Shown here one piece after another: positions 20,658 to 60,615 of a stretch of DNA of 64,000 nt; within the stretch, counting starts at the first letter, position 1, and each line of letters starts with the position of its first letter. Below the pieces are notes generated by a model. The model was not told where the DNA came from. It saw only the letters and a list, made by a program, of their open reading frames with translations, and made no database searches. The DNA comes from a virus: the IMG/VR virus record IMGVR_UViG_3300031603_000001, positions 96,001-160,000 of that record, one strand, 5' to 3'. The position numbers and the translations under genes are program-made.

Positions 20658-20764
20658 CCCTCTGACGGGTCTCGAACCCGTAACCAGAAGCTGACGTACG
20701 ATAATCCACGGCGCGATGCCGCAACGACCGTACACTTCCGCTCTGCCAATTGAGCTACTGTGTT
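20658..20764 (-). ncRNA. degenerate tRNA-like element with extended anticodon arm
   Basis: D arm GCTCAATTGGCAGAGC and T arm ACGGG-TTCGAGA-CCCGT; about 44-nt insert; acceptor strands do not pair. Confidence 0.55.
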
Positions 20765-20772
20765 CACAATAG

Positions 20773-20877
20773 GGGAGGAAGGCGGACTCGAACCACCAAC
20801 CGGGAATGATTGTACGTAAAGATAGTCGCAATGACTATCCGAGGTACATCCTGCTCTGCCAGTTGAGCTATACCTCC
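20773..20877 (-). ncRNA. tRNA-like RNA with anticodon loop replaced by a long hairpin
   Basis: Acceptor GGAGGTA/TTCCTCC, D and T arms intact; TGTAC/GTACA stem plus GATAGTC/GACTATC hairpin. Confidence 0.7.
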
Positions 20878-23210: not shown

Positions 23211-23495
23211 TTACCAATCCATTCCATTTGATTTAATAGAGGCTATGCCATGTAGGCATGCGACTGCTACGTCCGTGAGCTCTTTCTCGACATTGTCGAT
23301 ATCATTGCTCTTGACGGTGTCTACGAGTTCATAGAACTCTTCAGTGACTATGCCTAAGATTTCGTGAGAGGACGCACAGATGTGCGGTCCCTTCTCCTGG
23401 AGCCTGCGGATCCACTCTTCGTAGATCTTCTTATGTGTTTCATTTATTAAACGAGGGGTAACTTCAGGACGTTCCATTAGTATCTTCCTTATCAC
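23211..23495 (-). CDS. MazG-like nucleotide pyrophosphohydrolase
   Basis: EILGIVTEEFYEL..EKELTDVAVAC (EEXXE..EXXD). Confidence 0.75.
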   Translation of the reverse strand: MIRKILMERPEVTPRLINETHKKIYEEWIRRLQEKGPHICASSHEILGIVTEEFYELVDTVKSNDIDNVEKELTDVAVACLHGIASIKSNGMDW

Positions 23496-24198
23496 AGTTA
23501 ACTAGGGGATCGATGATAGCATCGAGTATCTCGAACCGTGGTTTAATGTCGACACGTTGTATGATAGTCGACCTTACGAACTTAGTAATATAAGTCCCAT
23601 TCTTTCCCCGTTCGGAGATATCATGGGCCCATCGTAAGCCCTTGTCATGTAACATATCGTGCATAGCCTCTTGGTTCTTACCATGCAATTGCTTCTGAGA
23701 GTAATTAGCCTGGGCGTACATCTGTACAGAATTACGTTCCCAGTCTTTAGCTCTCCATAGGAAGTAATTAGTAACTTCTTCCCGCGGTACATTGAACGCA
23801 CGTGCATCGAAGCATGCTATTTTACCATTATCAATGTTTTCATAGGCTTCTTTAGCAAAGTAGGCAGTCATCATACTGGCTAGTACAGACTCGATCTTAT
23901 TCTGAACATATCCAAAATAAGCATCAGTATCGTGAGTAGCATAATCTGTTAACAGAATAGATACTTCATCACTTTGTACGAAAGCGAGTTGAAATCCCTG
24001 GATTTGTCTACACATGTTTTGCGCAGCAATAGCCATTGAACTCATAAATGGTTCATGGAACATTGGCATACCTCTGGTGTACGAGTGGAATGCTTTTCCA
24101 TCTAATCTGACGATAACAGGCATCCTACGAATAAGCTTGTGTTTTGCACGCTTCTCGTAGTTCTCCTTCATACGATCGCCAAGGCCTGTCTTATCCAA
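23464..24198 (-). CDS. thg1: tRNA-His guanylyltransferase (Thg1/TLP)
   Basis: RLDGKAFH, FVQSDEVS, FDARAF, YFLWR..D..RNS. Confidence 0.93.
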   Translation of the reverse strand: MDKTGLGDRMKENYEKRAKHKLIRRMPVIVRLDGKAFHSYTRGMPMFHEPFMSSMAIAAQNMCRQIQGFQLAFVQSDEVSILLTDYATHDTDAYFGYVQNKIESVLASMMTAYFAKEAYENIDNGKIACFDARAFNVPREEVTNYFLWRAKDWERNSVQMYAQANYSQKQLHGKNQEAMHDMLHDKGLRWAHDISERGKNGTYITKFVRSTIIQRVDIKPRFEILDAIIDPLVNCDKEDTNGTS

Positions 24199-29100: not shown

Positions 29101-29231
29101 TATGAGCGACCGGATTCGAACTGGCGCACCTAGCTTAGATTATAGTGTGAGGTAGGTACCGTAATTCACACCTCTTACTAGTATATGACCGGGATTATGT
29201 TCCCGCGCTCTACCAATTGAGCTACACTCAC
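29101..29231 (-). ncRNA. tRNA-Met-like RNA with about 55-nt variable-region insertion
   Basis: Acceptor GTGAGTG/CGCTCAT, D arm, CGGGA-ACATAA-TCCCG (6-nt loop), insert with GTGTGA/TCACAC stem, T loop TTCGAAT. Confidence 0.7.
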
Positions 29232-30170: not shown

Positions 30171-30303
30171 AACCTTTCGGTAACCTCCGATACTTCACTT
30201 TATAGGCGTCCTATCCGCTAGACGACCGGCCCCTGGGGGACCAGGCGAGATTTGAACTCGCGTTTCCTCCTTGATATGGTAGTTAGGGTTTGCTGTGAGG
30301 TTT
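30171..30303 (-). ncRNA. Y RNA (YrlA)-like ncRNA copy A with permuted tRNA module (Asp/Glu/His-like)
   Basis: AAACCTCACAGCAA..T arm GCGAG-TTCAAAT-CTCGC, CTGGTCCC-CCA-GGGGCCGG, D arm GTCTAGCGGATAGGAC..GGTTACCGAAAGGTT. Confidence 0.75.
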
Positions 30304-30311
30304 ATATTAAA

Positions 30312-31196
30312 TCATGATATTTTACGGATAATAACACTATGTATTTGCATTCCTCCACCGTTATTACCAGGATATCTTAGACTCTCGAGTAATGTACGTT
30401 TGTATTTTGTATGATCAAGTCCATTAATAAATGAATACCAAAGCGTTCGTTGTTCGTTTGCATTAACTTGAGCCCTAGTAGTAGTATTTAATATTAAAGC
30501 TAATGGTACACCTATTGTGGTGTTATTCGCTATAAACACTTCTACTTGCTTTAATAAGTTAAGTGTAGTAGACACTTGTAGGTCTAAATTAGCTAAAGTT
30601 AAGTTACGATGTACAGCTTCAAATACATTCTTATTAAAAAGCTCATATCTTTTATTTCCACCAGAAACTATATTATTTAACTCTGTAAAATCCTTTAGTT
30701 TACGGTAGTGCGCAGTGTGGTCACCTGCATATTCATATGTATTAAGTATAGCACTGTGAGGCATAAACTCTAATAACCGTTGTTTGTCAATATCCATTGC
30801 AGTACCCGCTAATGTGATAATCTCTGTATTTGGGAGAATTGGTAAATACCAAGTTACTTCCTTAAATACTTTTGCAAATGCTATATGACGTTGCTGATTA
30901 TGTACGTAATCTAAACCATTAGCTTTGCACTTTTTACAAGTGTATACCTTTTGTTTAGGTTTTACCTCTACAAAACTATAAGCAGGACAATGTTTACATT
31001 TTCTCAGATAAACTCGTTGCACTGCCGCTTTCCCTTGTGAAAGGAAGGGGCCTCTAACTTTAAAGTAATAGTCTTCATTTAATAAACAGTAAACTTTAGT
31101 ATTCCTTTGAGTTATGGTGGCTATTCTTCTTTGCTTAGGGTCTCGGCATCTTGCAGCCTTTGACATGATACTTTGTTTTAGATTTAACTTTTGCAT
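30312..31196 (-). CDS. Zn-ribbon plus putative methyltransferase-fold protein (paralog of 42956-44467)
   Basis: CKHC/CKKC followed by a domain colinear with the C-terminus of the 503-aa ORF. Confidence 0.65.
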   Translation of the reverse strand: MQKLNLKQSIMSKAARCRDPKQRRIATITQRNTKVYCLLNEDYYFKVRGPFLSQGKAAVQRVYLRKCKHCPAYSFVEVKPKQKVYTCKKCKANGLDYVHNQQRHIAFAKVFKEVTWYLPILPNTEIITLAGTAMDIDKQRLLEFMPHSAILNTYEYAGDHTAHYRKLKDFTELNNIVSGGNKRYELFNKNVFEAVHRNLTLANLDLQVSTTLNLLKQVEVFIANNTTIGVPLALILNTTTRAQVNANEQRTLWYSFINGLDHTKYKRTLLESLRYPGNNGGGMQIHSVIIRKIS

Positions 31197-31308
31197 AATA
31201 AATATCCTAGTTATGGCAGTACTCCGCCAATTCTTATGATCAACAGAGTATTACCTCAGATCTTTATATAACCCGTTGTACTGGGATTGTATTACGAATT
31301 ACCATTCG

Positions 31309-31445
31309 AACCTTGCGGTAACCTCTAGGTAACTCTCGTGCTCTAACCAACTGAGCTACTCCCCTATGTTTTGCAGGGGAGACTGGATTCGAACCAGTGA
31401 CCGCGTCATTTGGAGTGATTAGTTTGTTTGTTTGCTGTAAGGTTT
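31309..31445 (-). ncRNA. Y RNA-like ncRNA copy B with permuted tRNA module (Trp-derived)
   Basis: AAACCTTACAGCAA..CTCCAAA TGACG..ACTGG-TTCGAAT-CCAGT, CTCCCCT-GCAAAACAT-AGGGGAG, D arm GCTCAGTTGGTTAGAGC..GGTTACCGCAAGGTT. Confidence 0.78.
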
Positions 31446-31449
31446 CTAA

Positions 31450-32019
31450 TTATTTAGAGGAACTAGTCCTCTTTGGATTGCTCTGTGGACGTTTATTACC
31501 GTTTCCCACATTAGCACCTCCAAATGTTTTTGTAAGCGAATGACAATTAGGACAAAGTAACTGTACGTTACCAGGACTTGAGTCCTTCCAATTACCATCA
31601 ATATGATCTACTTGTAGAGGTATTTTATTAGTATAAAGATTAACTACATTCCACTCGCATTTTGAGCACTTATTATTAATCTCAAATAAATGTGCACGAA
31701 TAGCCTTCGATATACCTCCATGGGAGGTTGTCGCCTCATAAGTGCCAGAGTACCAAGCTTCTATTATCCGCTTGCGTTTATCTGCAATATGACATTCTTT
31801 ATTACAGTACTTAGAATGAGGATTATTTAATGGAGTTGTGCAGAATAAACACAATCCAGTACTATGTACTTGTTGTAATTTCTCTGCATCTTTATGCGCT
31901 CTGCAGCAAAAGAACTTACCCGACTTATTAGCTTTAATAGCAGATGGAGATCTATGTATCTTAATATTACATCCGTCGGTTGAACACTGTATGTTTAGAA
32001 TAATCTTTGTAAATGACAT
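31450..32019 (-). CDS. HNH homing endonuclease with N-terminal Zn-binding repeats
   Basis: CSKC..LQVDHIDGNWKDSSPGNVQLLCPNCHS. Confidence 0.88.
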   Translation of the reverse strand: MSFTKIILNIQCSTDGCNIKIHRSPSAIKANKSGKFFCCRAHKDAEKLQQVHSTGLCLFCTTPLNNPHSKYCNKECHIADKRKRIIEAWYSGTYEATTSHGGISKAIRAHLFEINNKCSKCEWNVVNLYTNKIPLQVDHIDGNWKDSSPGNVQLLCPNCHSLTKTFGGANVGNGNKRPQSNPKRTSSSK

Positions 32020-32125
32020 ATCGCCTCCTATTTACATATAGGTATGTCACTGGTCAAGCATCTATTTGGTAATTCTCTTAAAGTACGTACCACACTAAGA
32101 TATAATAATCAAATAGATGCTTAAG

Positions 32126-32200
32126 TGCACCGTGGAGGACTCGAACCTCCGTTCACAGACTTATCAGGTCTGTACATTAACCGTCGTATGCTATCGGTGC
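32126..32200 (-). tRNA. tRNA-Ile(GAT)
   Basis: CAGAC-CT GAT AA-GTCTG. Confidence 0.88.
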
Positions 32201-32488
32201 CTAACTACTGCCTTAAAGGACTAGTTAATCATTTTACGTTAGTATGTGCTACAAAATATCCACTTACAACAGTAGCTACTGTGGCAAGATACCATATTAA
32301 GTGTTCCCATATAAACTTCAATGTGGCAGAGCCCATTCCAGTCTCTACAGGAGGAACCCATGTCCAAAATGTCCATGAATAACTAACTCCGCTTATTAAG
32401 CCACAAAACATCAGGAATACACCTAATATCATTTTTGTATCTTTACTCATCCGTTTTACCTCAGATATTAAAAGTTGGATCCTCTTAA

Positions 32489-32620
32489 AACCTTGCGGTA
32501 ACCCGAGAGGACCCTGGCAGTCTGGCGCTCTACCAACTGAGTTAACATCACCGGGGCGACGTCGCGGATTTGAACCGCGGACATCCAGATTTCAGTATGC
32601 GTTTTGGTTGCTGTGGGGTT
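32489..32620 (-). ncRNA. Y RNA-like ncRNA copy C with permuted tRNA module (Phe-derived)
   Basis: AACCCCACAGCAA..CTGAAA TCTGG ATGTC CGCGG-TTCAAAT-CCGCG, ACGTCGCC-CC-GGTGATGT, D arm, CCAGA..GGTTACCGCAAGGTT. Confidence 0.78.
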
Positions 32621-32629
32621 AATACTTTG

Positions 32630-32701
32630 CGCTGAGTAGAAGAATCGAACTCCTGTCAGAGGATTACAAATCCCCCGCTCTACCTGTTAAGCTAACTCAG
32701 C
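32630..32701 (-). tRNA. tRNA-Thr(TGT)
   Basis: GGGGA-TT TGT AA-TCCTC. Confidence 0.9.
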
Positions 32702-32735
32702 TAATAACTTTTCCCTACTTTGTATCTTTCACGTC

Positions 32736-32809
32736 TGTGAACGGAGAGGATCGAACTCTCGAGCACGCGGACCACAACCGCGCGCTCTACCAACTGAGCT
32801 ACGTCCACC
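32736..32809 (-). tRNA. tRNA-His(GTG), encoded G-1 opposite A73
   Basis: CGCGG-TT GTG GT-CCGCG; acceptor GTGGACG/CGTTCAC then A. Confidence 0.9.
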
Positions 32810-32814
32810 GTGTG

Positions 32815-32888
32815 CGGGGAAGGAAAGATTCGAACTCTCGTCGCACGGGTTTGGAGGCCGGCATCGTAGACCGCTAGACCACTTCCCC
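32815..32888 (-). tRNA. tRNA-Trp(CCA), weak anticodon stem
   Basis: Acceptor GGGGAAG/CTTCCCC, loop CT CCA AA, only about 3 anticodon-stem pairs. Confidence 0.7.
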
Positions 32889-32896
32889 TTTGTAAT

Positions 32897-32974
32897 TGGT
32901 CACCCCGGAGAGGTTCGAACTCTCGTTTTTGGACTGAAAATCCAATGTTCTAGACCTATCTAAACTACGGGGCG
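32897..32974 (-). tRNA. tRNA-Glu(TTC) with encoded CCA
   Basis: TTGGA-TT TTC AG-TCCAA. Confidence 0.92.
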
Positions 32975-32979
32975 AATAA

Positions 32980-33287
32980 AAGCAGAATGTAGCTACTTAA
33001 GACCAGGCGGTGTAGCCGCCCTGCCTATAACCCGGCTCTCCAGCCAGGATACCCTTTTAATTTCAGCCGAAGCTTAGCGAAGATCGAGTGAACTCCCTGT
33101 TAGTTTTACTATTATCTGCTTAATAATAAAGCAAGCCGGTAGCTACACCTGTAGGTTAGTTGCTGCAGCAACACCTCCGCACCGCTCTCCAGCGGCGAAG
33201 CCTTTTAAGTTTAGTGTGAGGATTGGCCAGTAGCTCACGAAAGTGTCTACTTGTAGCCTCATGCTAGTTTTCGCTTTTTACTTGCTT
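32980..33287 (-). ncRNA. two tandem homologous structured RNAs of unknown family (33129-33287 and 32980-33121)
   Basis: Each is closed by an AAGCA../..TGCTT stem and shares AAAACTA, TTAAAAGG, a GCT-GGAG-AGC hairpin and GTAGCTAC. Confidence 0.6.
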
Positions 33288-33390
33288 AATACTAAGGAAA
33301 GAGGCAGGAATCTAGACCTGCTATATCTCCGTATGTTGTTTAATACAGCACCTTAGAGATTCTCCGTTGCTCCATACTGCGAAAGTTTTG

Positions 33391-33464
33391 TGGCAGGGGC
33401 GGGATTTGAACCCACGACCTGAAGCTTATGAAGCTCCCGAGCTACCAGACTGCTCCACCCTGCT
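33391..33464 (-). tRNA. tRNA-Met(CAT), initiator-like (1:72 mismatch)
   Basis: D arm GAGCAGTCTGGTAGCTC, loop TT CAT AA, A1xC72. Confidence 0.88.
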
Positions 33465-33472
33465 AATTAGGT

Positions 33473-33754
33473 TTATTCACCATGGTATTGAAACAACACT
33501 GCATTACAGCGATCGTGTACAACCCCAATGGTCATACCTGTATCATGGTTATGATGCAGATGTACTGGATAATTAAAGAAGCCATCTGGAAATAGCTTCG
33601 TATTAATATACTTATCTTGTACTTCTTTGGAAGGATCTCCAAACAACTTTGTTTTACAATAATAACAAAGCTTATCTTGTAACTTCATATACTCTAAGCG
33701 AACTTTACGACGTTCACTTGGACTTATTTCATCATAGTTTACTGGAAGTTCCAT
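33473..33754 (-). CDS. endonuclease VII-like HNH protein
   Basis: CYYC..VHLHHNHDTGMTIGVVHDRCN. Confidence 0.75.
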   Translation of the reverse strand: MELPVNYDEISPSERRKVRLEYMKLQDKLCYYCKTKLFGDPSKEVQDKYINTKLFPDGFFNYPVHLHHNHDTGMTIGVVHDRCNAVLFQYHGE

Positions 33755-33777
33755 TTAACCTTTCATTAATCTCTTAG

Positions 33778-33850
33778 CTCCTCGCAAAGGATTTGAACCT
33801 CTGTATTCAGCTCCAAAAGCTGAGGTCCTGGGCCGCTAGACGAACGAGGA
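33778..33850 (-). tRNA. tRNA-Gln(TTG)
   Basis: TCAGC-TT TTG GA-GCTGA. Confidence 0.9.
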
Positions 33851-33861
33851 ATGAATCTTTG

Positions 33862-33937
33862 TGGGGGCAGAAGGATTTGAACCTTCGATCAATACATTAA
33901 AAGTGTACTGCTTTAAGCCAGACTAAGCTACGCCCCC
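33862..33937 (-). tRNA. tRNA-Lys(TTT)
   Basis: GTACA-CT TTT AA-TGTAT. Confidence 0.9.
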
Positions 33938-34103
33938 TTCTTTACGAAAGCGTTTGCCTATCGGAGCTGATAGGCGGCTTTGATACAATCTGGGGCTCCT
34001 CTCCCATGATCTCCACCATTATACTAAAGGGATATGTCTAAGTATTAAATCTCTTGCATCACAGACGTATTCGGCAGGACTTCCGCCTGCACAAATCCCT
34101 ACG

Positions 34104-34175
34104 AGCAGTAAGTGAGATTTGAACTCACAACCTCCACGTCGGCAACGTGGCATTCTACCGTTGAACTATTACCGC
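34104..34175 (-). tRNA. tRNA-Gly(GCC)
   Basis: CCACG-TT GCC GA-CGTGG, U73. Confidence 0.92.
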
Positions 34176-34186
34176 ATTTACTACTG

Positions 34187-34274
34187 AACCGGAGACAGGA
34201 CTCGAACCTGCGACACCCGACTTGGAAAGACGGTGTTCTACGACATTTCTGTCTACCAACTGAACTACTCCGGC
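34187..34274 (-). tRNA. tRNA-Gly(TCC) with extra hairpin in the D loop
   Basis: Loop TT TCC AA, U73; the D loop contains GACA-GAAA-TGTC. Confidence 0.8.
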
Positions 34275-34349
34275 ATATTAAATTAAAGCGGGTAACGTAT
34301 ACCACGATCGAAGCTGTTTCAGTCGATCTCAGATTTAAAGCTACCCACG

Positions 34350-34435
34350 CGGAGAGGGTAGGATTTGAACCCACGTGCCCTTTCGGACCACTCCTTAGCA
34401 AGGAGGCGCTTTTGACCAGACTCAGCCACCTCTCC
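34350..34435 (-). tRNA. tRNA-Ser(GCT)
   Basis: Loop TT GCT AA, long variable arm, G73. Confidence 0.9.
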
Positions 34436-34443
34436 ATTTGTTG

Positions 34444-34534
34444 AGGCGGAGGTAGGATTCGAACCCACGGACCCTGTTACCAGGGCCTGCGGTTTTCAAA
34501 ACCGCCGTCTTAAGCCAGACTCGACCACTCCGCC
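34444..34534 (-). tRNA. tRNA-Ser(TGA)
   Basis: GCGGT-TT TGA AA-ACCGC, long variable arm; U73 is atypical. Confidence 0.88.
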
Positions 34535-34658
34535 GTGATGTACTCAGACCTAACGCATTCGAAGATTACAGGTTCACCCTAGTGCTAACGCATATAGAGA
34601 ATATTACCATAGCATGTGAATAGTTCTTTAGGATTGAGAGTACATGTTAATAATGTTT

Positions 34659-34905
34659 ACGACAAGGCAGGTATCGAAGCCTGCAATCGGTGCTTTTTGA
34701 GATTAGTATTGGAGTAGAGATAAGTTAAGCCTAGTCCCACGGGAGTCGCCCCTCCCTCGTAATATGGTTCAGTCACCTAAAGACTTACATCTTCATCAAT
34801 TCAGATCTCCCGCTTATCTTCTCCAAATGCAAGATAGTTCAGAAAACCTAGTGAGTTATGTACTTCAAAAGGAGCTATAGCGTTTGCCAATTACGCCACT
34901 TGTCG
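34659..34905 (-). ncRNA. 247-nt tRNA-like RNA with a large structured insert in place of the anticodon arm
   Basis: Acceptor CGACAAG/CTTGTCG, D arm GCGT-AATTGGCA-AACGC, T arm GCAGG-CTTCGATA-CCTGC, CTTTTGA/TCAAAAAG closing stem. Confidence 0.65.
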
Positions 34906-34987
34906 TCTGATTGCGTGTTTTCATTACACTATGTGTACACTTAGATACACGCTGCAGAATTTAACTGCACTAGATTCAATCAGTTTG

Positions 34988-35060
34988 CTGCCCCTCCAGG
35001 ATTCGAACCTGGGACATCCTGCTTAACAGGCAGGCGCTCTACCAACTGAGCTAAGGAACA
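34988..35060 (-). tRNA. tRNA-Asn(GTT)
   Basis: CCTGC-CT GTT AA-GCAGG. Confidence 0.92.
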
Positions 35061-35075
35061 ATATGTTTAGTTTCA

Positions 35076-35140
35076 AACCTTGCGGTAACCTCCACTAAAC
35101 GGGTCATTACAGAGATGAGGGGTTGGGTTGCTGTTAGGTT
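35076..35140 (-). ncRNA. Y RNA-like ncRNA copy D (minimal, no tRNA module)
   Basis: AACCTAACAGCAA..36 nt..AGGTTACCGCAAGGTT. Confidence 0.7.
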
Positions 35141-35180
35141 AATAATTCTATGCTGGCACAAAATCTACGGTGAAACGTAG

Positions 35181-35254
35181 AAACTTTCGCCAACCTAATC
35201 CGAAGATTCGGTACCAGCGGCTTTTTAGTAAGTTATGGTTGTTGCTGTAAGGTT
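35181..35254 (-). ncRNA. Y RNA-like ncRNA copy E (minimal)
   Basis: AACCTTACAGCAA..CCGAATCTTCGG hairpin..AGGTTGGCGAAAGTTT. Confidence 0.7.
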
Positions 35255-35308
35255 GCTAGGGTTAGTTGCTTCCGATGTCGGAAGCTATCATCGCCTTTTA
35301 CTGACGTG

Positions 35309-35382
35309 TAGCACCAGAGGGATTCGAACTCTCGACCCCTGCGTCCCAAACGCAGTGCTCTACCGGACTGAGCTATGGCACT
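35309..35382 (-). tRNA. tRNA-Pro(TGG)
   Basis: CTGCG-TT TGG GA-CGCAG. Confidence 0.9.
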
Positions 35383-35423
35383 ATTATAAAGATAATCATC
35401 TCATCAATCCCCCAAGGGGATAA

Positions 35424-35534
35424 AAGCTTTCGCCAACCTGAAGATGAGGATCATACCCTGGAATCAGGAAAGGGGTACACAAAGGTCACCCAAACCCGAT
35501 TTACTTTATCATTAGTTATGATTGCTGTAAGGTT
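35424..35534 (-). ncRNA. Y RNA-like ncRNA copy F (non-tRNA insert)
   Basis: AACCTTACAGCAA..about 80 nt..AGGTTGGCGAAAGCTT. Confidence 0.68.
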
Positions 35535-36248
35535 GATTTGTTTAGGGCTCGTCACCCTAATATTTGCCCAAATTGTCAAAGAACCTTTTTAAACGGACAC
35601 CAATAGTTATGTCAGCCCATTTAGTCCACAGAATAATTCTTATCAGAAGGGCATTTCATCATCATCATCTTCATAAGATACCGGCTGCTCCCTCTCATCC
35701 TCTCGTTCTGCAATGTATTCCTTCACAGCGTCAATATACGTACAGGTATCAGGGTAAGCTTTGATAGCGTGAGATTCTCCCATTTGGGTACAAGATGTAC
35801 ACTTAACCGGCATTTCTTCCTCATCAAATGAGTACTCCCACTCAATGTAAAAAGTACAGGCATTGTCTAAGCATACGTTATCCAGTATGACAGGTGATTC
35901 AATAATCATCTCTCTGCTCCTGGATAGTCCTCCGGATCCATAATTCTATGGTAATGAGCCTCAGCCGTTTTCTCGGCTATCTTCTCATTCATATCCTCAG
36001 CATAGTGATTATCTAATACTTCGACAATTGCTATAGCTTCTTTGTCCGTGAGGGACTGAAAGCACTCTATGACTTCGAATTCGTCTTGATATGCTTCAAT
36101 ACGTTCCTGGGCAGATTGATTAGCAAAACTCTCTTGAGCATTGACTACTGCATCGTCTGACCTACTTCGTGGTGCTTCAGATGGTGGATGTTCTGTTACA
36201 AACAGCCGTTGTACCATGTCACCTCCTCTTTAAAAGTGATGTCTATCG

Positions 36249-36379
36249 AACCTTGCGGTAACCCCAAGACATCTATTACGTTGCTCTACCAGACTGAGCT
36301 ACACCTGTACTACGACAGGAGACAGGATTTGAACCTGTGGCCGACGGCTCCGATTGCATTAGTTGGTTGCTGTAGGGTT
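36249..36379 (-). ncRNA. Y RNA-like ncRNA copy G with permuted tRNA module (Pro-derived), 18 nt downstream of the TROVE-like gene
   Basis: AACCCTACAGCAA..TCGGAG CCGT..ACAGG-TTCAAAT-CCTGT, CTCCTGT-CGTAGT-ACAGGTG, D arm GCTCAGTCTGGTAGAGC..GGTTACCGCAAGGTT. Confidence 0.8.
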
Positions 36380-36397: not shown

Positions 36398-37834
36398 TTA
36401 GTCTAGAATTCCAGGTGCCTCTGAACTTAACTCAATGGCAATACCATTGGCCGTCAGATGCGTATAATCTAACACTATAGGCTCTAGAGCTTTCTCCATG
36501 ATTCCGACAGGAGTAAAGTCTTCACCATTCAACAGGGCTTTCATCAGTACAGGATTAAACCCAGATACTAATGCAACTTCCTTATCATCATGCGTAGCAG
36601 GCACGCCCATCGCGTCACTTGCACATAGATTCCAGAAGACAACCTTTGGCATAACATAACCGGCCTCAAAGAACTCTTGACGGAGATTCTCGAGTGCCGA
36701 TTGACTGCCATTACGTACACAACTATCAAATTGCATATCGGATAATACCAGCAACATTGTTGGCATCTGTTCCCGACTCAACTGAAAGGTTTTAGCAGTG
36801 TCCAGAATAAGGCGATATGCCTTAGCAAAGTCTGTATTCCTATCCCAATTGGATCTATGGATAAGCCTAAACTTATCTCTTAGACTCATCTTATCATTCA
36901 CACGAACGAATGAAGGATTACCACTAAAAGTAAGAATAGCATCTTTGTACGGACCGATGCCACGTTCAGCTACGTATAACCCTAAGGATATACACACTTG
37001 CATGGCACTGACGTCCTTGGCTGCAGGTGTCATCATACTTCCAGACACATCACACATAGGCAGAACGCGTTCGCCTTCTTCCATGTAATTAGGAAGACTA
37101 GCCCATTGCTTTTCACCAAGAGCTTCATCAGAACCAATCCCATATCCATTTCCACACACAAGTGTATAAATATCATGAGGATAAGAGGAACTGACAGAGG
37201 CCTTTTGAGTCTTGTCATTCTTCCACTCTTCGAAGCGTTCACCATCCTGTTTACCATAGGACTTCTTGTACTTACGCAATGCTGCGCCAGGTACACTAGA
37301 ATACTTAATTTCCGAGAACTTCTTAGCAGCCATCTGTTGTTCAACAGTGGCACTGTGTTCTTTGAGGAAATGTCTGTACTGTGACCATGTCATGTCCAGG
37401 GCTTGCTTCAATTGCTTAGCAGGTTCACCTTTACGAGGTGCCCATTTACATGCAAGAGCATCTTTACTCTGTACAGCATCTTTGAATGTGGCCAATACTC
37501 CGTCAATATGGAAGTAAGGTACTAAATCTTTCCAGTAACCTATTCCAGCCAGCATCTTAGCATTGCTGGCTACGAAGTCCGGTTGTACAGTGCATAGGAA
37601 CTGAAGGATTGTATGAAATACGCGCCGTTCCCCTGCGCCATCACGTGCGGCACGAGCCCAATAAGCTATTTGAGTAGCTACCTTTGGGTTTTCGTTAAAT
37701 GCACGGATAAATTCCGATATAATAGCGCTAGCATTTGCTTGTCTCATAGCCCCTATACGGGAAAAGAGATTTAAAGTGGCAAACCCACTCGAAACGAGCT
37801 GGGATGCACCATTTTCTGTTAATGAATACTTCAT
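36398..37834 (-). CDS. TROVE-like/DUF2828 helical domain plus vWA domain protein (Ro60-related)
   Basis: TENGA, LF..IG, R..RDGAGER, G.WKDL, KWAPR, MIDAS CDVSGSM, SLGLY.AE, NTDF, LSDMQFD, VFWNL, LVSGF. Confidence 0.88.
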   Translation of the reverse strand: MKYSLTENGASQLVSSGFATLNLFSRIGAMRQANASAIISEFIRAFNENPKVATQIAYWARAARDGAGERRVFHTILQFLCTVQPDFVASNAKMLAGIGYWKDLVPYFHIDGVLATFKDAVQSKDALACKWAPRKGEPAKQLKQALDMTWSQYRHFLKEHSATVEQQMAAKKFSEIKYSSVPGAALRKYKKSYGKQDGERFEEWKNDKTQKASVSSSYPHDIYTLVCGNGYGIGSDEALGEKQWASLPNYMEEGERVLPMCDVSGSMMTPAAKDVSAMQVCISLGLYVAERGIGPYKDAILTFSGNPSFVRVNDKMSLRDKFRLIHRSNWDRNTDFAKAYRLILDTAKTFQLSREQMPTMLLVLSDMQFDSCVRNGSQSALENLRQEFFEAGYVMPKVVFWNLCASDAMGVPATHDDKEVALVSGFNPVLMKALLNGEDFTPVGIMEKALEPIVLDYTHLTANGIAIELSSEAPGILD

Positions 37835-59500: not shown

Positions 59501-60388
59501 GTAGTGACGTAAGTCTTTCATACCCTGGCTACTAGCCGGGTGCTCTTGGTTACCATTACACACAGGATACATGTAACAACTGCCACTCCCGAAGGTAGTG
59601 ACATCAACGTCGAAGCCTCTGACTTGGATCCTTCTAGTCTTTACGGACATCTAAGGTCCCCTTATTATCATGTGTATGAAGTACTATGCCAGTACTACGA
59701 TCTTTGATCTGAGCCCAACCACATCCGTGGCCATGCCGACTAACAAAGTACTGCATGTCCACCTTAGCGTCATCCAGGTTACCCTGGTACGTGAACTCAT
59801 GACTCACTGCTTCACCTATAGCTCCGGCTGTCGTATAATACCTAAGAGGATCATTCTTCGTAGGAGTATCTACTACTTTATTAAGCAATGCAATGAACCC
59901 GTCTTCAGTCATAGCCTGAACAACAGGTCCTTCTTTACGACGTCCAGCCTCTCCTTCAGTCCATGTGTCTGCATAACAGTCACTGTTGTCCTTGAATAGC
60001 TGACGTATCTCCAGTTCTGATTTTGGATTCATCTTCACTTACCTCAGTATGGTGCTTGATACAGGTAACCCCGTATCATTAGCTTCTGGTTGATAAATAT
60101 TAACTAATATAGACTTACCATCTATATCACTGCATATTTGTATAGATACTTTTTTACCATCATCATCTGGATGTCGTAACTCCATACCCATGCCTACATT
60201 GTTTAGTACACCTTCTACTTCTATTAAGATACCATCGTAGTCTTCCACAGTAGTTACTGTAACTAGTCTCATCTTGTCAGTAGGGTCTCCTGACTCTTCG
60301 TCAATTAAACAAATCTTAGTTTGATATGAACTTACATTAGTATTCATTACTTCTCCATTACATGTTAATTTGAATATAGTCTATTGTG

Positions 60389-60468
60389 TACAGTAAGATG
60401 GGATCGAACCATCATTCTCTCATGACCTCTACGGTGCATGAGTGCTCTACCAGTTAAGCTACTACTGC
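60389..60468 (-). ncRNA. tRNA-like RNA with elongated anticodon arm
   Basis: Acceptor GCAGTAG/TTACTGT, D and T arms; CTCATG-C-ACC-GTAGA-GGT-CATGAG. Confidence 0.72.
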
Positions 60469-60615
60469 ATGTTAGATCTTGTACAGATCTTAGGGTGTTT
60501 TGCATAGGATGTTACAGGTCTCATTTAGTATCATAGGCCCGTGCTGTACAGATATGTGTGCTATAAATAGACACTACTGTCAAGCACAGGCTCTATAATG
60601 CTTACTGAGTACTAC

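What the first reader, a model, noticed from the sequence alone, without database searches (positions are those of the whole stretch)
30171..36379. Four circularly permuted tRNA modules appear to derive from four different parent tRNAs
Each module is a tRNA 3' half followed by its own matching 5' half, with a 7-8 bp acceptor pairing across a short linker. Vestigial anticodon loops and arm identities differ: copy B has CT-CCA-AA with an AGGGG acceptor (Trp); copy C has CT-GAA-A with an intact CCAGA/TCTGG stem (Phe); copy G has TCGGAG with a CTCAGTCTGGTAGAGC D arm (Pro); copy A has a GTCTAGCGGATAGGAC D arm (Asp/Glu/His-like). One stem scaffold therefore seems to have captured permuted tRNAs repeatedly and independently, rather than duplicating a single Y RNA. 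No canonical tRNA-Phe is present in this window. Inference: there is a recurring route from tRNA to Y-like RNA, or the scaffold presents a panel of tRNA-elbow decoys to different host enzymes such as anticodon nucleases or tRNA-sensing defences.
Basis: partly seen in the sequence, partly recalled or inferred. Interest (0 to 1): 0.82.

Follow-up and report, generated by a model that had tools for sequence, protein, structure and literature searches.

The report
Phage Y-like RNAs with tRNA mimics
Four small RNA genes in a large phage each contain a re-ordered tRNA look-alike clamped by a shared "handle" next to a Ro60-shaped protein gene, but they come from two or three old RNA lineages shared by many phages, not from four freshly captured tRNAs.

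Summary
The four modules are real, but they are not four separate captures. The window is part of a complete 198-kb phage. It carries seven small-RNA genes closed by one handle: a 6-bp stem (P1), an ACAGCAA box and a 3' GNRA hairpin. They lie just downstream of a gene for a Ro60-shaped protein (DUF2828/DUF7788). Copies A, B, C and G each hold a whole cloverleaf mimic with a sealed acceptor end, opened in the anticodon stem or loop.

- **G and B** belong to one conserved phage lineage. A model built from 15 other phages scores them 79 and 57 bits; a junction of two adjacent tRNA genes scores 39. They also share the linker AACTAAT. In that lineage the "anticodon" triplet is the most variable spot (9 triplets in 16 phages). 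So B's CCA is weak evidence for Trp, and G's TCGGAG is out of register (in-frame UCG).
- **A** belongs to a second lineage that is normally un-permuted with an open CCA end. A is its circular permutation, with CCA kept in the sealing loop.
- **C** is unresolved. Its body is generic, but its anticodon arm equals a common phage tRNA-Phe arm minus one A, and Phe is the only isotype this phage lacks.

That gives two, perhaps three, old origins. This scan met the same handle/Ro60-like system before in at least 8 other genomes.

The parts
30171..30302 (-). Copy A, a handle RNA with a tRNA mimic of the 'e1' lineage in circularly permuted form. P1 30297-30302 pairs with 30182-30187; ACAGCAA box 30290-30296; anticodon-like hairpin CTACC-ATATCAA-GGAGG 30266-30282; T arm 30245-30261; acceptor 3' strand 30238-30244; sealing loop C-CCA-G 30233-30237; acceptor 5' strand 30226-30232; Glu-type D arm 30207-30225; 3' GNRA hairpin tail 30171-30181.
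   Evidence: e1-lineage model R2 34.9 bits, E 1.7e-6, top hit in the window; G-type model R1 only 31.3 bits; D arm plus TATAAA linker shared with 8 distinct un-permuted elements of other phages
31309..31444 (-). Copy B, a handle RNA with a G-type tRNA mimic. Module 31337-31418; 7-nt loop CTCCAAA 31409-31415 in a composite 5-bp anticodon stem (break at 28/29); acceptor AGGGGAG/CTCCCCT sealed by a 9-nt loop.
   Evidence: R1 57.5 bits, E 6e-13; body identity 0.88 to the Vibrio phage pv27 module and 0.81 to G, against 0.76 to the best tRNA; Rfam YrlA 34.7 bits, below threshold
32489..32620 (-). Copy C, a handle RNA with a tRNA mimic opened in the anticodon loop. Module 32518-32595; intact stem CCAGA/TCTGG; CTG is present at the end of the 5' half and at the start of the 3' half; variable loop ATGTC.
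   Evidence: R1 47.5 bits, only 8 above the tRNA-junction control; the arm equals a common phage tRNA-Phe arm minus one A; the body is no closer to Phe than B or G are
36249..36379 (-). Copy G, a handle RNA with a G-type (YrlA-like) tRNA mimic, 19 bases downstream of the Ro60-like gene. Module 36279-36357; in-frame loop AA[TCG]GA; composite anticodon stem (break at 29/30).
   Evidence: R1 79.3 bits, E 1e-18; Rfam YrlA 35.5 bits, E 1.2e-6 when G is searched alone; shares GAGCAACGTAA and GC-loop-GCCGT with 16 distinct elements of other phages
35076..35534 (-). Copies D (35076-35140), E (35181-35254) and F (35424-35534): the same handle with cargo that is not tRNA-like.
   Evidence: P1 pairs 6/6 in each
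36398..37834 (-). Gene for the Ro60-shaped protein (DUF2828 + DUF7788; PHROG 850 'RNA-binding protein'), the likely partner of the handle.
   Evidence: Pfam 2.9e-49 and 3.1e-23; PHROG 1e-105; AlphaFold model pLDDT 79; the top 13 PDB fold matches are all Ro60/TROVE, best Thermus phage phiLo Ro60 at E 1.3e-7; handle RNAs lie just downstream of the homologous gene in L052-L057 and L106
38630..40000 (-). RNA ligase (PHA02142 OB domain + RNA_ligase). Context only.
23464..24198 (-). Thg1-like 3'-5' nucleotidyl transferase (tRNA 5'-end repair family). Context only.
   Evidence: Pfam PF04446, 4.2e-22

Best explanation
A, B, C and G are the tRNA-mimic domains of phage Y-like RNAs. Each is clamped by one handle: a 6-bp stem P1, an ACAGCAA box and a 3' GNRA hairpin. 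The handle is most likely the docking site for the Ro60-shaped protein encoded just upstream of G (inferred from fold and conserved neighbourhood, not shown).

Each module is a complete cloverleaf mimic. The acceptor end is sealed by a loop, and the chain is opened in the anticodon stem (A and B at 28/29, G at 29/30) or in the anticodon loop (C), where the handle attaches.

The modules descend from lineages that are old and shared by many phages carrying this protein:
- **G-type (YrlA-like) lineage: G and B.** These are paralogues. The frame GC-[A/C]U-NNN-[A/G]A-GCCGU-NGGUC is conserved while the 'anticodon' triplet varies freely.
- **'e1' lineage: A.** This lineage is normally an un-permuted tRNA frame with an open acceptor, an encoded CCA end and the handle closed as a hairpin in the anticodon stem. 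A is its circular permutation, most simply made by a tandem duplication with shifted ends, and it still carries CCA in the sealing loop.
- **C is unresolved.** It is either a diverged G-type copy or a third origin whose anticodon arm came from a tRNA-Phe.

Function is inferred by analogy with Ro60/Y RNA. The handle would hold the ring protein, and the tRNA-shaped end would engage tRNA-binding factors or nucleases, as part of the phage's tRNA supply-and-repair kit (26 tRNA-model matches in the genome, an RNA ligase, a Thg1-like enzyme).
For: - Anatomy: read directly. Helix covariation in 17 elements. P1 covariation.
- Ro60 fold and gene-RNA neighbourhood.
- G and B as one lineage: model R1, built only from other phages, gives G 79.3, B 57.5, C 47.5, the tRNA-Trp/His junction control 39.1 and A 31.3 bits. 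Body identity is B-pv27 0.88 and B-G 0.81. Only 0.04% of different-isotype tRNA pairs reach 0.81, or 1.2% among tRNAs with the same D arm. B and G share AACTAAT in a linker that is otherwise variable.
- Variable triplet: 9 different triplets in 16 distinct elements; entropy 1.16 bits against 0.45 for the rest of the loop and 0.35 for stem plus variable loop.
- A as e1 lineage: model R2, built from the 3' parts of 10 e1 elements (a part not used to find them), scores A 34.9 bits; the next best is 23.5 (tRNA-Asn). All 8 distinct pattern hits are un-permuted and most end in CCA. A's loop ATATCAA is one change from the e1 consensus ATGTCAA.
- Literature: YrlA-type Y RNAs mimic tRNA and occur in phages (PMC4201824). 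A phage Ro60 binds phage Y-like RNAs (PMC12135203). Jumbo phages pair TROVE proteins with RNA repair genes (PMC7824862).
Against: - No expression, end-mapping or binding data exist for any of these RNAs.
- The handle does not resemble the known Ro60-binding helix, and Pfam TROVE does not match the protein.
- The ML tree is unresolved. AU tests reject no grouping, so neither two origins nor one is proven by phylogeny.
- Part of B's and C's R1 score comes from the ACAGCAA box itself, so C's 8-bit margin over the control is not meaningful.
- No close relative of this phage could be fetched, so orthologues of A, B and C were never seen.
Confidence: 0.68

Rival explanations
1. One reading: the handle captured four different tRNAs independently (B from Trp, C from Phe, G from Pro, A from Asp/Glu/His), and the loops are relics of the parents' anticodons.
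For: - All helices differ between the four copies.
- B has A1:U72 plus G73, a combination found in 7 of 21 Trp tRNAs but only 9 of 606 others, together with the loop CUCCAAA.
- C's arm is a true Phe arm.
- Nearest-neighbour calls are A to Glu (7/8) and G to Pro (5-6/8). For real tRNAs, agreement of 6 or more of 8 is about 90% right.
Against: - B and G match each other and the Y-RNA modules of other phages better than any of 627 tRNAs.
- Homologous elements in related phages swap acceptor and T-stem sequences completely, so differing helices carry no weight.
- The triplet is the hypervariable site of the lineage.
- B's arm is in no tRNA gene of the viral collection.
- G's CGG is out of register, and G lacks U33, C1:G72 and A73.
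- A's lineage exists in at least 8 other phages.
Confidence: 0.07
2. Three origins: A (e1 lineage), B+G (G-type) and C. On this view C was made separately from the phage's own tRNA-Phe gene, which it replaced. The route would be a tandem duplication that left the 3-nt overlap CTG, with the handle attached in the anticodon loop.
For: - C's arm CCAGA-CTGAAA-TCTGG equals the arm of at least 38 distinct phage tRNA-Phe genes minus one A.
- CTG is present at both broken ends.
- G26 and the variable loop ATGTC differ from the G-type frame (A26, NGGTC).
- The phage has tRNAs for 19 amino acids and lacks only Phe.
Against: - C's body is no closer to those Phe genes (maximum 0.77) than B's or G's bodies are (0.77 each).
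- The discriminator is C, not A.
- C shares CCAA after the box with G, and the CGCAT motif with G-type elements.
- Tyr arms match as well after a 1-nt deletion.
Confidence: 0.3
3. All four modules share a single origin: one ancestral permuted tRNA mimic that was duplicated and diverged.
For: - The four are collinear, with identical spacing from box to T arm in A, C and G.
- AU tests do not reject A+B+C+G as one clade (p 0.23) or all 17 modules as one clade (p 0.10).
Against: - A differs in D-stem type, has a 4-nt variable loop, and its linker and hairpin match a separate, mostly un-permuted lineage.
- A scores below a random tRNA junction on the G-type model.
- A's identity to other modules is 0.43-0.64.
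Confidence: 0.1
4. These are permuted tRNA genes. The transcripts would be circularised or ligated (the RNA ligase is nearby) and trimmed into working tRNAs, with C supplying the missing tRNA-Phe.
For: - The order is 3' half before 5' half.
- An RNA ligase gene lies two genes upstream of the Ro60-like gene.
- Phe is the only missing isotype.
- A keeps CCA at the acceptor junction.
Against: - Joining C's halves gives a 6-nt loop.
- C's discriminator is C, and its 4-nt sealing loop carries no CCA.
- The phage already has Trp, Asp and Glu tRNAs.
- The same handle closes three cargos that are not tRNA-like (D, E, F).
- The triplet varies between close relatives, including AUU, and own G lacks U33.
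- The handle travels with the Ro60-like gene, not with tRNA need.
Confidence: 0.04

Closest known systems
YrlA-type Y RNAs with Ro60/Rsr in bacteria and mycobacteriophages (Rfam RF02553; Chen et al. 2014, PMC4201824)
   Same: - Module order is T arm, closed acceptor, D arm.
- The RNA genes lie beside the gene of a Ro60-shaped protein, and several Y-type RNAs occur per locus.
- There is a link with RNA ligase and tRNA damage.
- G aligns to the Rfam model end to end (E 1.2e-6 when searched alone).
- M. smegmatis YrlA is cut by RNase P and receives CCA, which recalls A's CCA junction.
   Different: - All four copies score below the Rfam threshold (35.5 bits or less, against 69).
- The protein is DUF2828/DUF7788, not Pfam TROVE.
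- The handle is a 6-bp stem plus ACAGCAA plus a GNRA hairpin (or a UGUU tail), not the Ro-binding helix.
- T stems are variable rather than nearly invariant.
- A whole 7-nt anticodon-like loop is retained in A, B and G.
Thermus phage phiLo Ro60 with Yrl1/Yrl2 (PMC12135203; PDB 9L5Y, 9KOP)
   Same: It is a phage-encoded Ro60 ring that binds phage-encoded Y-like RNAs next to its gene. It is the best structural match of the protein modelled here.
   Different: No tRNA-like domain is reported for Yrl1/2: the terms tRNA-like and YrlA do not occur in the paper's text. Sequence identity is about 15%, and there is no ACAGCA handle.
Permuted tRNA genes of the red alga Cyanidioschyzon merolae (Soma et al. 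2007; from my own knowledge, not read here)
   Same: The 3' half is encoded before the 5' half, with a short linker between the acceptor strands. An origin by tandem duplication has been proposed.
   Different: Those genes are processed through a circular intermediate into working tRNAs. Here the evidence points to stable mimics tied to a protein handle.
Two-piece (permuted) tmRNA of alpha-proteobacteria and some cyanobacteria (from my own knowledge)
   Same: It is a natural circular permutation of a tRNA-like RNA gene relative to its standard form in other lineages, as seen for A against the e1 elements.
   Different: The family, function and partner (SmpB) are all different.

Membership tests
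YrlA (Rfam RF02553) | Reaches the curated gathering score (69 bits) | tested here: not met
   G 35.5, B 34.7, C 22.6, A 19.9 bits; G alone E 1.2e-6
YrlA (Rfam RF02553) | tRNA-like domain in the order T arm, closed acceptor, D arm | tested here: met
   covariation in 12 of 15 pairs across 17 elements
YrlA (Rfam RF02553) | Encoded beside a Ro60 (TROVE) orthologue | tested here: inconclusive
   Pfam TROVE is absent from the genome, but the neighbouring DUF2828/DUF7788 protein folds like Ro60 (top 13 PDB matches)
YrlA (Rfam RF02553) | D and T stems nearly invariant (Chen et al. 2014) | tested here: not met
   T stems differ in all four copies and across relatives; the D stem is conserved only in the G-type
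G-type ACAGCA-handle RNA lineage (defined here from 15 other phages) | Scores above tRNA-junction controls on model R1 and keeps the frame GC-loop7-GCCGT-NGGTC and GAGCA-ACGTAA | tested here: met
   G 79.3 bits with the full frame. B 57.5 bits, with stem letters changed but the same layout. The control scores 39.1. C at 47.5 is inconclusive. A at 31.3 does not meet it.
e1-type handle RNA lineage (tRNA frame with the handle in the anticodon stem) | Glu-type D arm plus TATAAA linker, hairpin (U)UCC-AUGUCAA-GGA(A), encoded CCA | tested here: met
   A has all of these, in permuted order. R2 gives 34.9 bits against 23.5 or less for everything else.
Functional permuted tRNA gene | Joining the halves restores a canonical 7-nt anticodon loop and a free acceptor end with the right discriminator | tested here: not met
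   C gives a 6-nt loop and has discriminator C. The acceptor ends are sealed by 4-9 nt loops. Processing itself is not testable with these tools.
Parent isotype claim: B = tRNA-Trp | Body and anticodon arm resemble Trp tRNAs | tested here: not met
   Nearest tRNAs are Val/Met/Asp. The arm 15-mer occurs in no tRNA gene of the viral contigs. Only the loop CUCCAAA and A1:U72/G73 fit.
Parent isotype claim: C = tRNA-Phe | Anticodon arm and body resemble Phe tRNAs | tested here: inconclusive
   Arm: yes, matching at least 38 distinct Phe genes. Body: no better than B or G. A73 is absent.
Parent isotype claim: G = tRNA-Pro | CGG in the anticodon register with Pro identity elements | tested here: not met
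   The in-frame triplet is UCG with A33. G has A1:U72 and C73. The nearest-neighbour call of Pro (5-6 of 8) rests on the common 9-nt D loop.
Parent isotype claim: A = Asp/Glu/His-like | D arm and anticodon arm of the Asp/Glu type | tested here: met
   14 of the 15 nearest D arms are Glu. The loop is one change from the e1 consensus AUGUCAA (GUC = Asp). These features are inherited from the e1 lineage, not from a local tRNA: the 0.82 match to the phage's own tRNA-Asp lies within background.

The most novel reading that the evidence does not exclude
The anticodon-like triplet of these handle RNAs is under diversifying selection. On this reading, phages use the Ro60-like particle to present a changing panel of anticodon-loop look-alikes. 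Here the panel would be CCA, UCG, AUC and a Phe-type arm. They would act as decoys or sensors for host anticodon nucleases or other tRNA-targeting defences. New members would arise by duplication, circular permutation and exchange with tRNA genes.
Probability: 0.2. Interest if true: 0.85.

Novelty: new variant of a known kind. Interest (0 to 1): 0.55.

Why it matters
Y RNAs with tRNA-like ends are known, but what the tRNA mimic is for remains open. Three things here make that question more testable.

- **A complete anticodon arm with a free triplet.** In a widespread phage branch the mimic keeps a complete anticodon arm. The arm's frame is conserved while the triplet changes even between close relatives. 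That pattern gives a concrete hypothesis (anticodon-specific decoys or sensors), and one phage offers four variants to test side by side.
- **A natural circular permutation.** Copy A and its un-permuted relatives form a pair, with CCA fossilised at the junction. This shows how such RNAs are rebuilt from tRNA-shaped genes in tandem arrays.
- **A caution for annotation.** Differing helices and "anticodons" in tRNA mimics do not by themselves indicate separate tRNA parents.

Tried and rejected
- **Megablast** of the region against 50,697 phage records found no match.
- **Exact handle 15-mer** in viral contigs gave 49 hits, all chance; none had the paired 5' arm.
- **Gapped handle pattern** gave no hit.
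- **Metagenome scan** for close relatives of the Ro60-like protein gave one 38% hit only.
The contigs of the 78% and 60% relatives could not be fetched, so no orthologues of A, B or C were seen.
- **blastn of B and C** against annotated phages was dominated by generic D and T arms and by junctions of adjacent tRNA genes. It was useful only for finding the pv27 element.
- **ML tree** of 144 bodies on 58 columns was unresolved. It placed A with the phage's own tRNA-Trp and C with Val, which I do not trust. AU tests rejected nothing.
- **A's 3' half** is 82% identical to the phage's own tRNA-Asp. I rejected this as evidence because real tRNAs reach 0.74-0.83 with other isotypes in the same test.
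- **Whole-length identity** of un-permuted A, B, C and G to e1 elements discriminates poorly (0.55-0.65).
- **Promoter and terminator scan** found fewer sites than in shuffles.
I used nearest neighbours with cross-validation and my own covariance models instead.

Full report
**Setting.** The window is bases 96001-160000 of a 197,958-bp virus record rated complete. Everything discussed lies on the minus strand, inside an array of tRNA genes. ARAGORN finds 22 tRNAs in the window and 23 in the genome. The Rfam tRNA model gives 26 matches in the genome. Together they cover 19 amino acids. Phe is the only one missing, even when introns are allowed.

**The observation.** Seven elements share the 5' motif AACCNNACAGCAA and a 3' motif GGTT(A/G)(C/G)CG(A/C)AAG, and nothing similar occurs elsewhere in the genome. 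Four of them hold, in order, a T arm, an acceptor 3' strand, a 4-9 nt loop, the matching acceptor 5' strand and a D arm:
- A 30171-30302
- B 31309-31444
- C 32489-32620
- G 36249-36379

The quoted letters are there: CTCCAAA and AGGGGAG in B, CCAGA...CTG and CTGAAA-TCTGG in C, TCGGAG in G, and the GTCT/GGAC D arm in A. So the modules are real.

- **The scaffold is not a long stem.** It is a 6-bp helix P1 whose last two pairs covary between copies, followed on the 5' side by single-stranded ACAGCAA and on the 3' side by a small CC-GNAA-GG hairpin. All seven copies pair 6/6, and twelve relatives with other P1 letters pair 5-6/6.
- **Only C is broken in the anticodon loop.** A, B and G each keep a 7-nt loop closed by a composite 5-bp stem. 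Two or three pairs form between the halves and two or three form locally. The breaks lie at 28/29, 28/29 and 29/30 (read).

**What the system is.** The gene that ends 19 bases upstream of G (36398-37834) matches DUF7788 and DUF2828 and PHROG 850, "RNA-binding protein". Pfam TROVE is absent from the genome. However, an AlphaFold model (pLDDT 79) has Ro60 proteins as its 13 best matches in the PDB, led by the Ro60 of Thermus phage phiLo.

The protein family is very large. In several phages with a 36-50% identical protein, RNAs with the same handle lie directly downstream of the gene. Nearby in this phage are an RNA ligase and a Thg1-like enzyme.

This is the known logic of Ro60 with tRNA-mimicking Y RNAs and RNA repair (PMC4201824, PMC7824862, PMC12135203), but with a different protein family and a different handle. 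The Rfam YrlA model sees G, B, C and A only below threshold. G alone aligns end to end at E 1.2e-6.

This scan has reported the same handle/Ro60-like pairing in at least 8 other genomes. I found no paper on it. DUF2828 appears in five papers, none on this topic.

**Are the four modules four captures?** I took 627 phage tRNAs from the fetched loci and this genome and removed the anticodon arm. I then asked which bodies lie nearest to each module. Cross-validation shows how far such calls can be trusted. At the relevant distance the top hit is right in 55-64% of cases. When 6 or more of 8 neighbours agree, the call is right in about 90%.

| Module | Nearest-neighbour call |
|---|---|
| A | Glu, 7 of 8 |
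| G | Pro, 5-6 of 8 |
| B | no clear call |
| C | no clear call |

However, the modules resemble other Y-RNA modules more than they resemble tRNAs. B is 0.88 identical to the element of Vibrio phage pv27 (found). B is 0.82 identical to L057 and 0.81 to G, but at best 0.76 to any tRNA. Only 0.04% of different-isotype tRNA pairs reach 0.81, or 1.2% among tRNAs with the same D arm. A stands apart at 0.43-0.64. An ML tree on 58 columns is unresolved, and AU tests reject no grouping, not even all four together. Phylogeny alone therefore decides nothing.

**The G-type lineage.** G shares the letters GAGCAACGTAA after the D arm with pv27 and L077, and a motif before the T arm as well. A scan of viral contigs for the D arm plus AACGTAA gave 40 loci. 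Sixteen distinct elements are permuted like G, and 14 of those carry the CAGCA box.

In all of them the 19 bases before the T stem read GC-[A/C]T-NNN-[A/G]A-GCCGT-NGGTC. This is a 7-nt loop with U33 and a purine at 37, inside a conserved frame. The triplet varies: TGT seven times, TGG twice, and GTG, TTC, GTC, TGA, ATT, TTT and GTT once each. Entropy is 1.16 bits at the triplet, 0.45 in the rest of the loop and 0.35 in the stem and variable loop. Two near-identical elements (L136, L143) differ only there.

- In this frame, own G reads GC-AA[TCG]GA-GCCGT.
- Own B reads CA-CT[CCA]AA-TGACG. It shares AACTAAT immediately upstream with G, in a stretch that is otherwise highly variable.

A covariance model built from 15 such elements of other phages scores as follows in the window:

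| Target | Score (bits) |
|---|---|
| G | 79.3 |
| B | 57.5 |
| C | 47.5 |
| Junction of the tRNA-Trp and tRNA-His genes (natural control) | 39.1 |
| A | 31.3 |

B's arm, taken as a 15-mer, occurs 32 times in 2.9 million viral contigs, and never in a tRNA gene. B's A1:U72 plus G73 is enriched in Trp (7 of 21 Trp tRNAs, against 9 of 606 others), so a Trp flavour cannot be excluded. The simpler reading is that B and G are paralogues and that CCA is one more state of a variable site.

Across 17 elements the acceptor and T stems change completely with full compensation, even between near relatives. Differing helices therefore say nothing about separate parents.

**The A lineage.** In L070, L082, L126 and L128 I found tRNA-shaped genes with an open acceptor stem and an encoded CCA. 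In these, the anticodon stem carries the handle closed as a hairpin: P1', a TGTTA loop, P1, then CAGNCAGCA.

A scan for A's D arm plus the linker GC(C/T)TATAAA gave 13 loci and 8 distinct elements. All are of this un-permuted kind. Most carry the hairpin TTCC-ATGTCAA-GGAA.

A has the same parts in rotated order, and its sealing loop reads C-CCA-G. That is the old 3' end joined to the 5' end. A model built only from the 3' parts of ten such elements, which were not part of the search pattern, gives these scores:

| Target | Score (bits) |
|---|---|
| A | 34.9 (E 1.7e-6) |
| tRNA-Asn | 23.5 |
| tRNA-Asp (this phage's own) | 21.8 |
| B | 21.7 |
| C | 14.6 |
| G | 7.5 |

So A is a circular permutation of a second, old lineage. 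Its ATATCAA loop is one change from that lineage's consensus, and its Glu-like D arm is inherited from that lineage. A tandem duplication with shifted ends is the simplest route (inference). Handle RNAs do lie head to tail in many of these phages.

**C.** C's body is generic. Its nearest tRNAs are Val, Asn and Thr, and its margin on the G-type model is no more than the box itself would give. But its arm, CCAGA-CTGAAA-TCTGG, is the arm of at least 38 distinct phage tRNA-Phe genes minus one A. CTG is present at both broken ends, and Phe is the phage's only missing isotype.

Against a Phe parent:
- C's body is no closer to those Phe genes than B's or G's bodies are (maximum 0.77 each).
- The discriminator is C.
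- Tyr arms fit after a one-base deletion.

I leave C open: a third origin from tRNA-Phe, or a G-type copy whose arm was exchanged or has converged.

**Function.** Nothing here shows expression or binding. By analogy, the handle docks the Ro60-like ring and the tRNA-shaped end meets tRNA-binding factors.

Working permuted tRNA genes are unlikely, for four reasons. C would have a 6-nt loop. The acceptor ends are sealed. The same handle closes three non-tRNA cargos (D, E, F). The phage already has its own Trp, Asp and Glu tRNAs. The variable triplet is compatible with neutral drift at exposed bases, or with selection for a changing set of anticodon look-alikes. I could not tell these two apart.

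**Verdict.** More than one tRNA-like lineage does sit on one handle, and exchange with tRNA genes probably happens. But there are two or three lineages, not four. They are old and widespread, and the Trp and Pro assignments do not hold.

Noticed in passing
L070:3211-3330, L082:4437-4556, L126:1716-1836, L128:2353-2471, and 8 distinct elements in L174-L186: These are un-permuted 'e1' elements: complete tRNA frames, most ending in an encoded CCA, whose anticodon stem carries the ACAGCA handle closed as a hairpin. In this lineage the loop triplet GUC (AUGUCAA) is conserved in most members, unlike the variable triplet of the G-type lineage.
   Followed up: partly
L134-L173 (e.g. L136:3640-3764 against L143:4837-4961): Near-identical G-type elements in two contigs differ only in the anticodon-like triplet (GTG against TGG). 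Across 16 elements there are 9 different triplets in a conserved frame.
   Followed up: partly
whole genome (window plus G000): The phage encodes tRNAs for 19 amino acids. Phe is the only isotype missing.
   Followed up: yes
window 34187-34274 (-): This matches the tRNA model (52.7 bits) but ARAGORN misses it. It reads as tRNA-Gly(UCC) with an extra hairpin inserted in the D loop.
   Followed up: partly
window 60385-60472 (-): A tRNA-like gene (47.8 bits) with a 6-7 bp anticodon stem and an 11-nt loop. ARAGORN calls it Leu(GAG) only by assuming a 5-nt intron.
   Followed up: no
window 29101-29231 (-) and 20664-20877 (-): Two further tRNA-framed RNAs with large inserts: about 60 nt in the variable region of the first, and weak tRNA-model or intron calls for the second. 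The phage holds several tRNA-scaffolded RNAs besides the handle family.
   Followed up: no
window 23464-24198 (-): A Thg1-like 3'-5' nucleotidyl transferase gene (tRNA 5'-end repair). It is of interest because copy A has an extra G between the CCA and the acceptor 5' strand, which can pair with C73.
   Followed up: no
window 30312-31196 (-) and 31450-32019 (-): Each of copies A and B is preceded by an ORF. One is an HNH endonuclease; the other has no family match. Mobile endonuclease genes may help to shuffle units in this array.
   Followed up: no
L068, L079, L089, L090, L098, L104, L112, L114, L116, L123, L126: Handle RNAs lie head to tail...GATCCTGTT, a short spacer, then GGATGACTACAGCAA.... 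Such tandem arrays would make circular permutation by shifted unit boundaries easy.
   Followed up: partly
L177:3640-3760: An un-permuted tRNA frame with the common GCTC/GAGC D arm and an ACAGCA handle inside. Both D-arm types therefore exist in both topologies.
   Followed up: no
L131:3955-4105 (Vibrio phage pv27, OR413349.1): A cultured, published Vibrio phage carries an unannotated G-type tRNA mimic, overlapped by two tiny 'hypothetical protein' calls. No CAGCA box is seen upstream. It could serve as an experimental system.
   Followed up: partly
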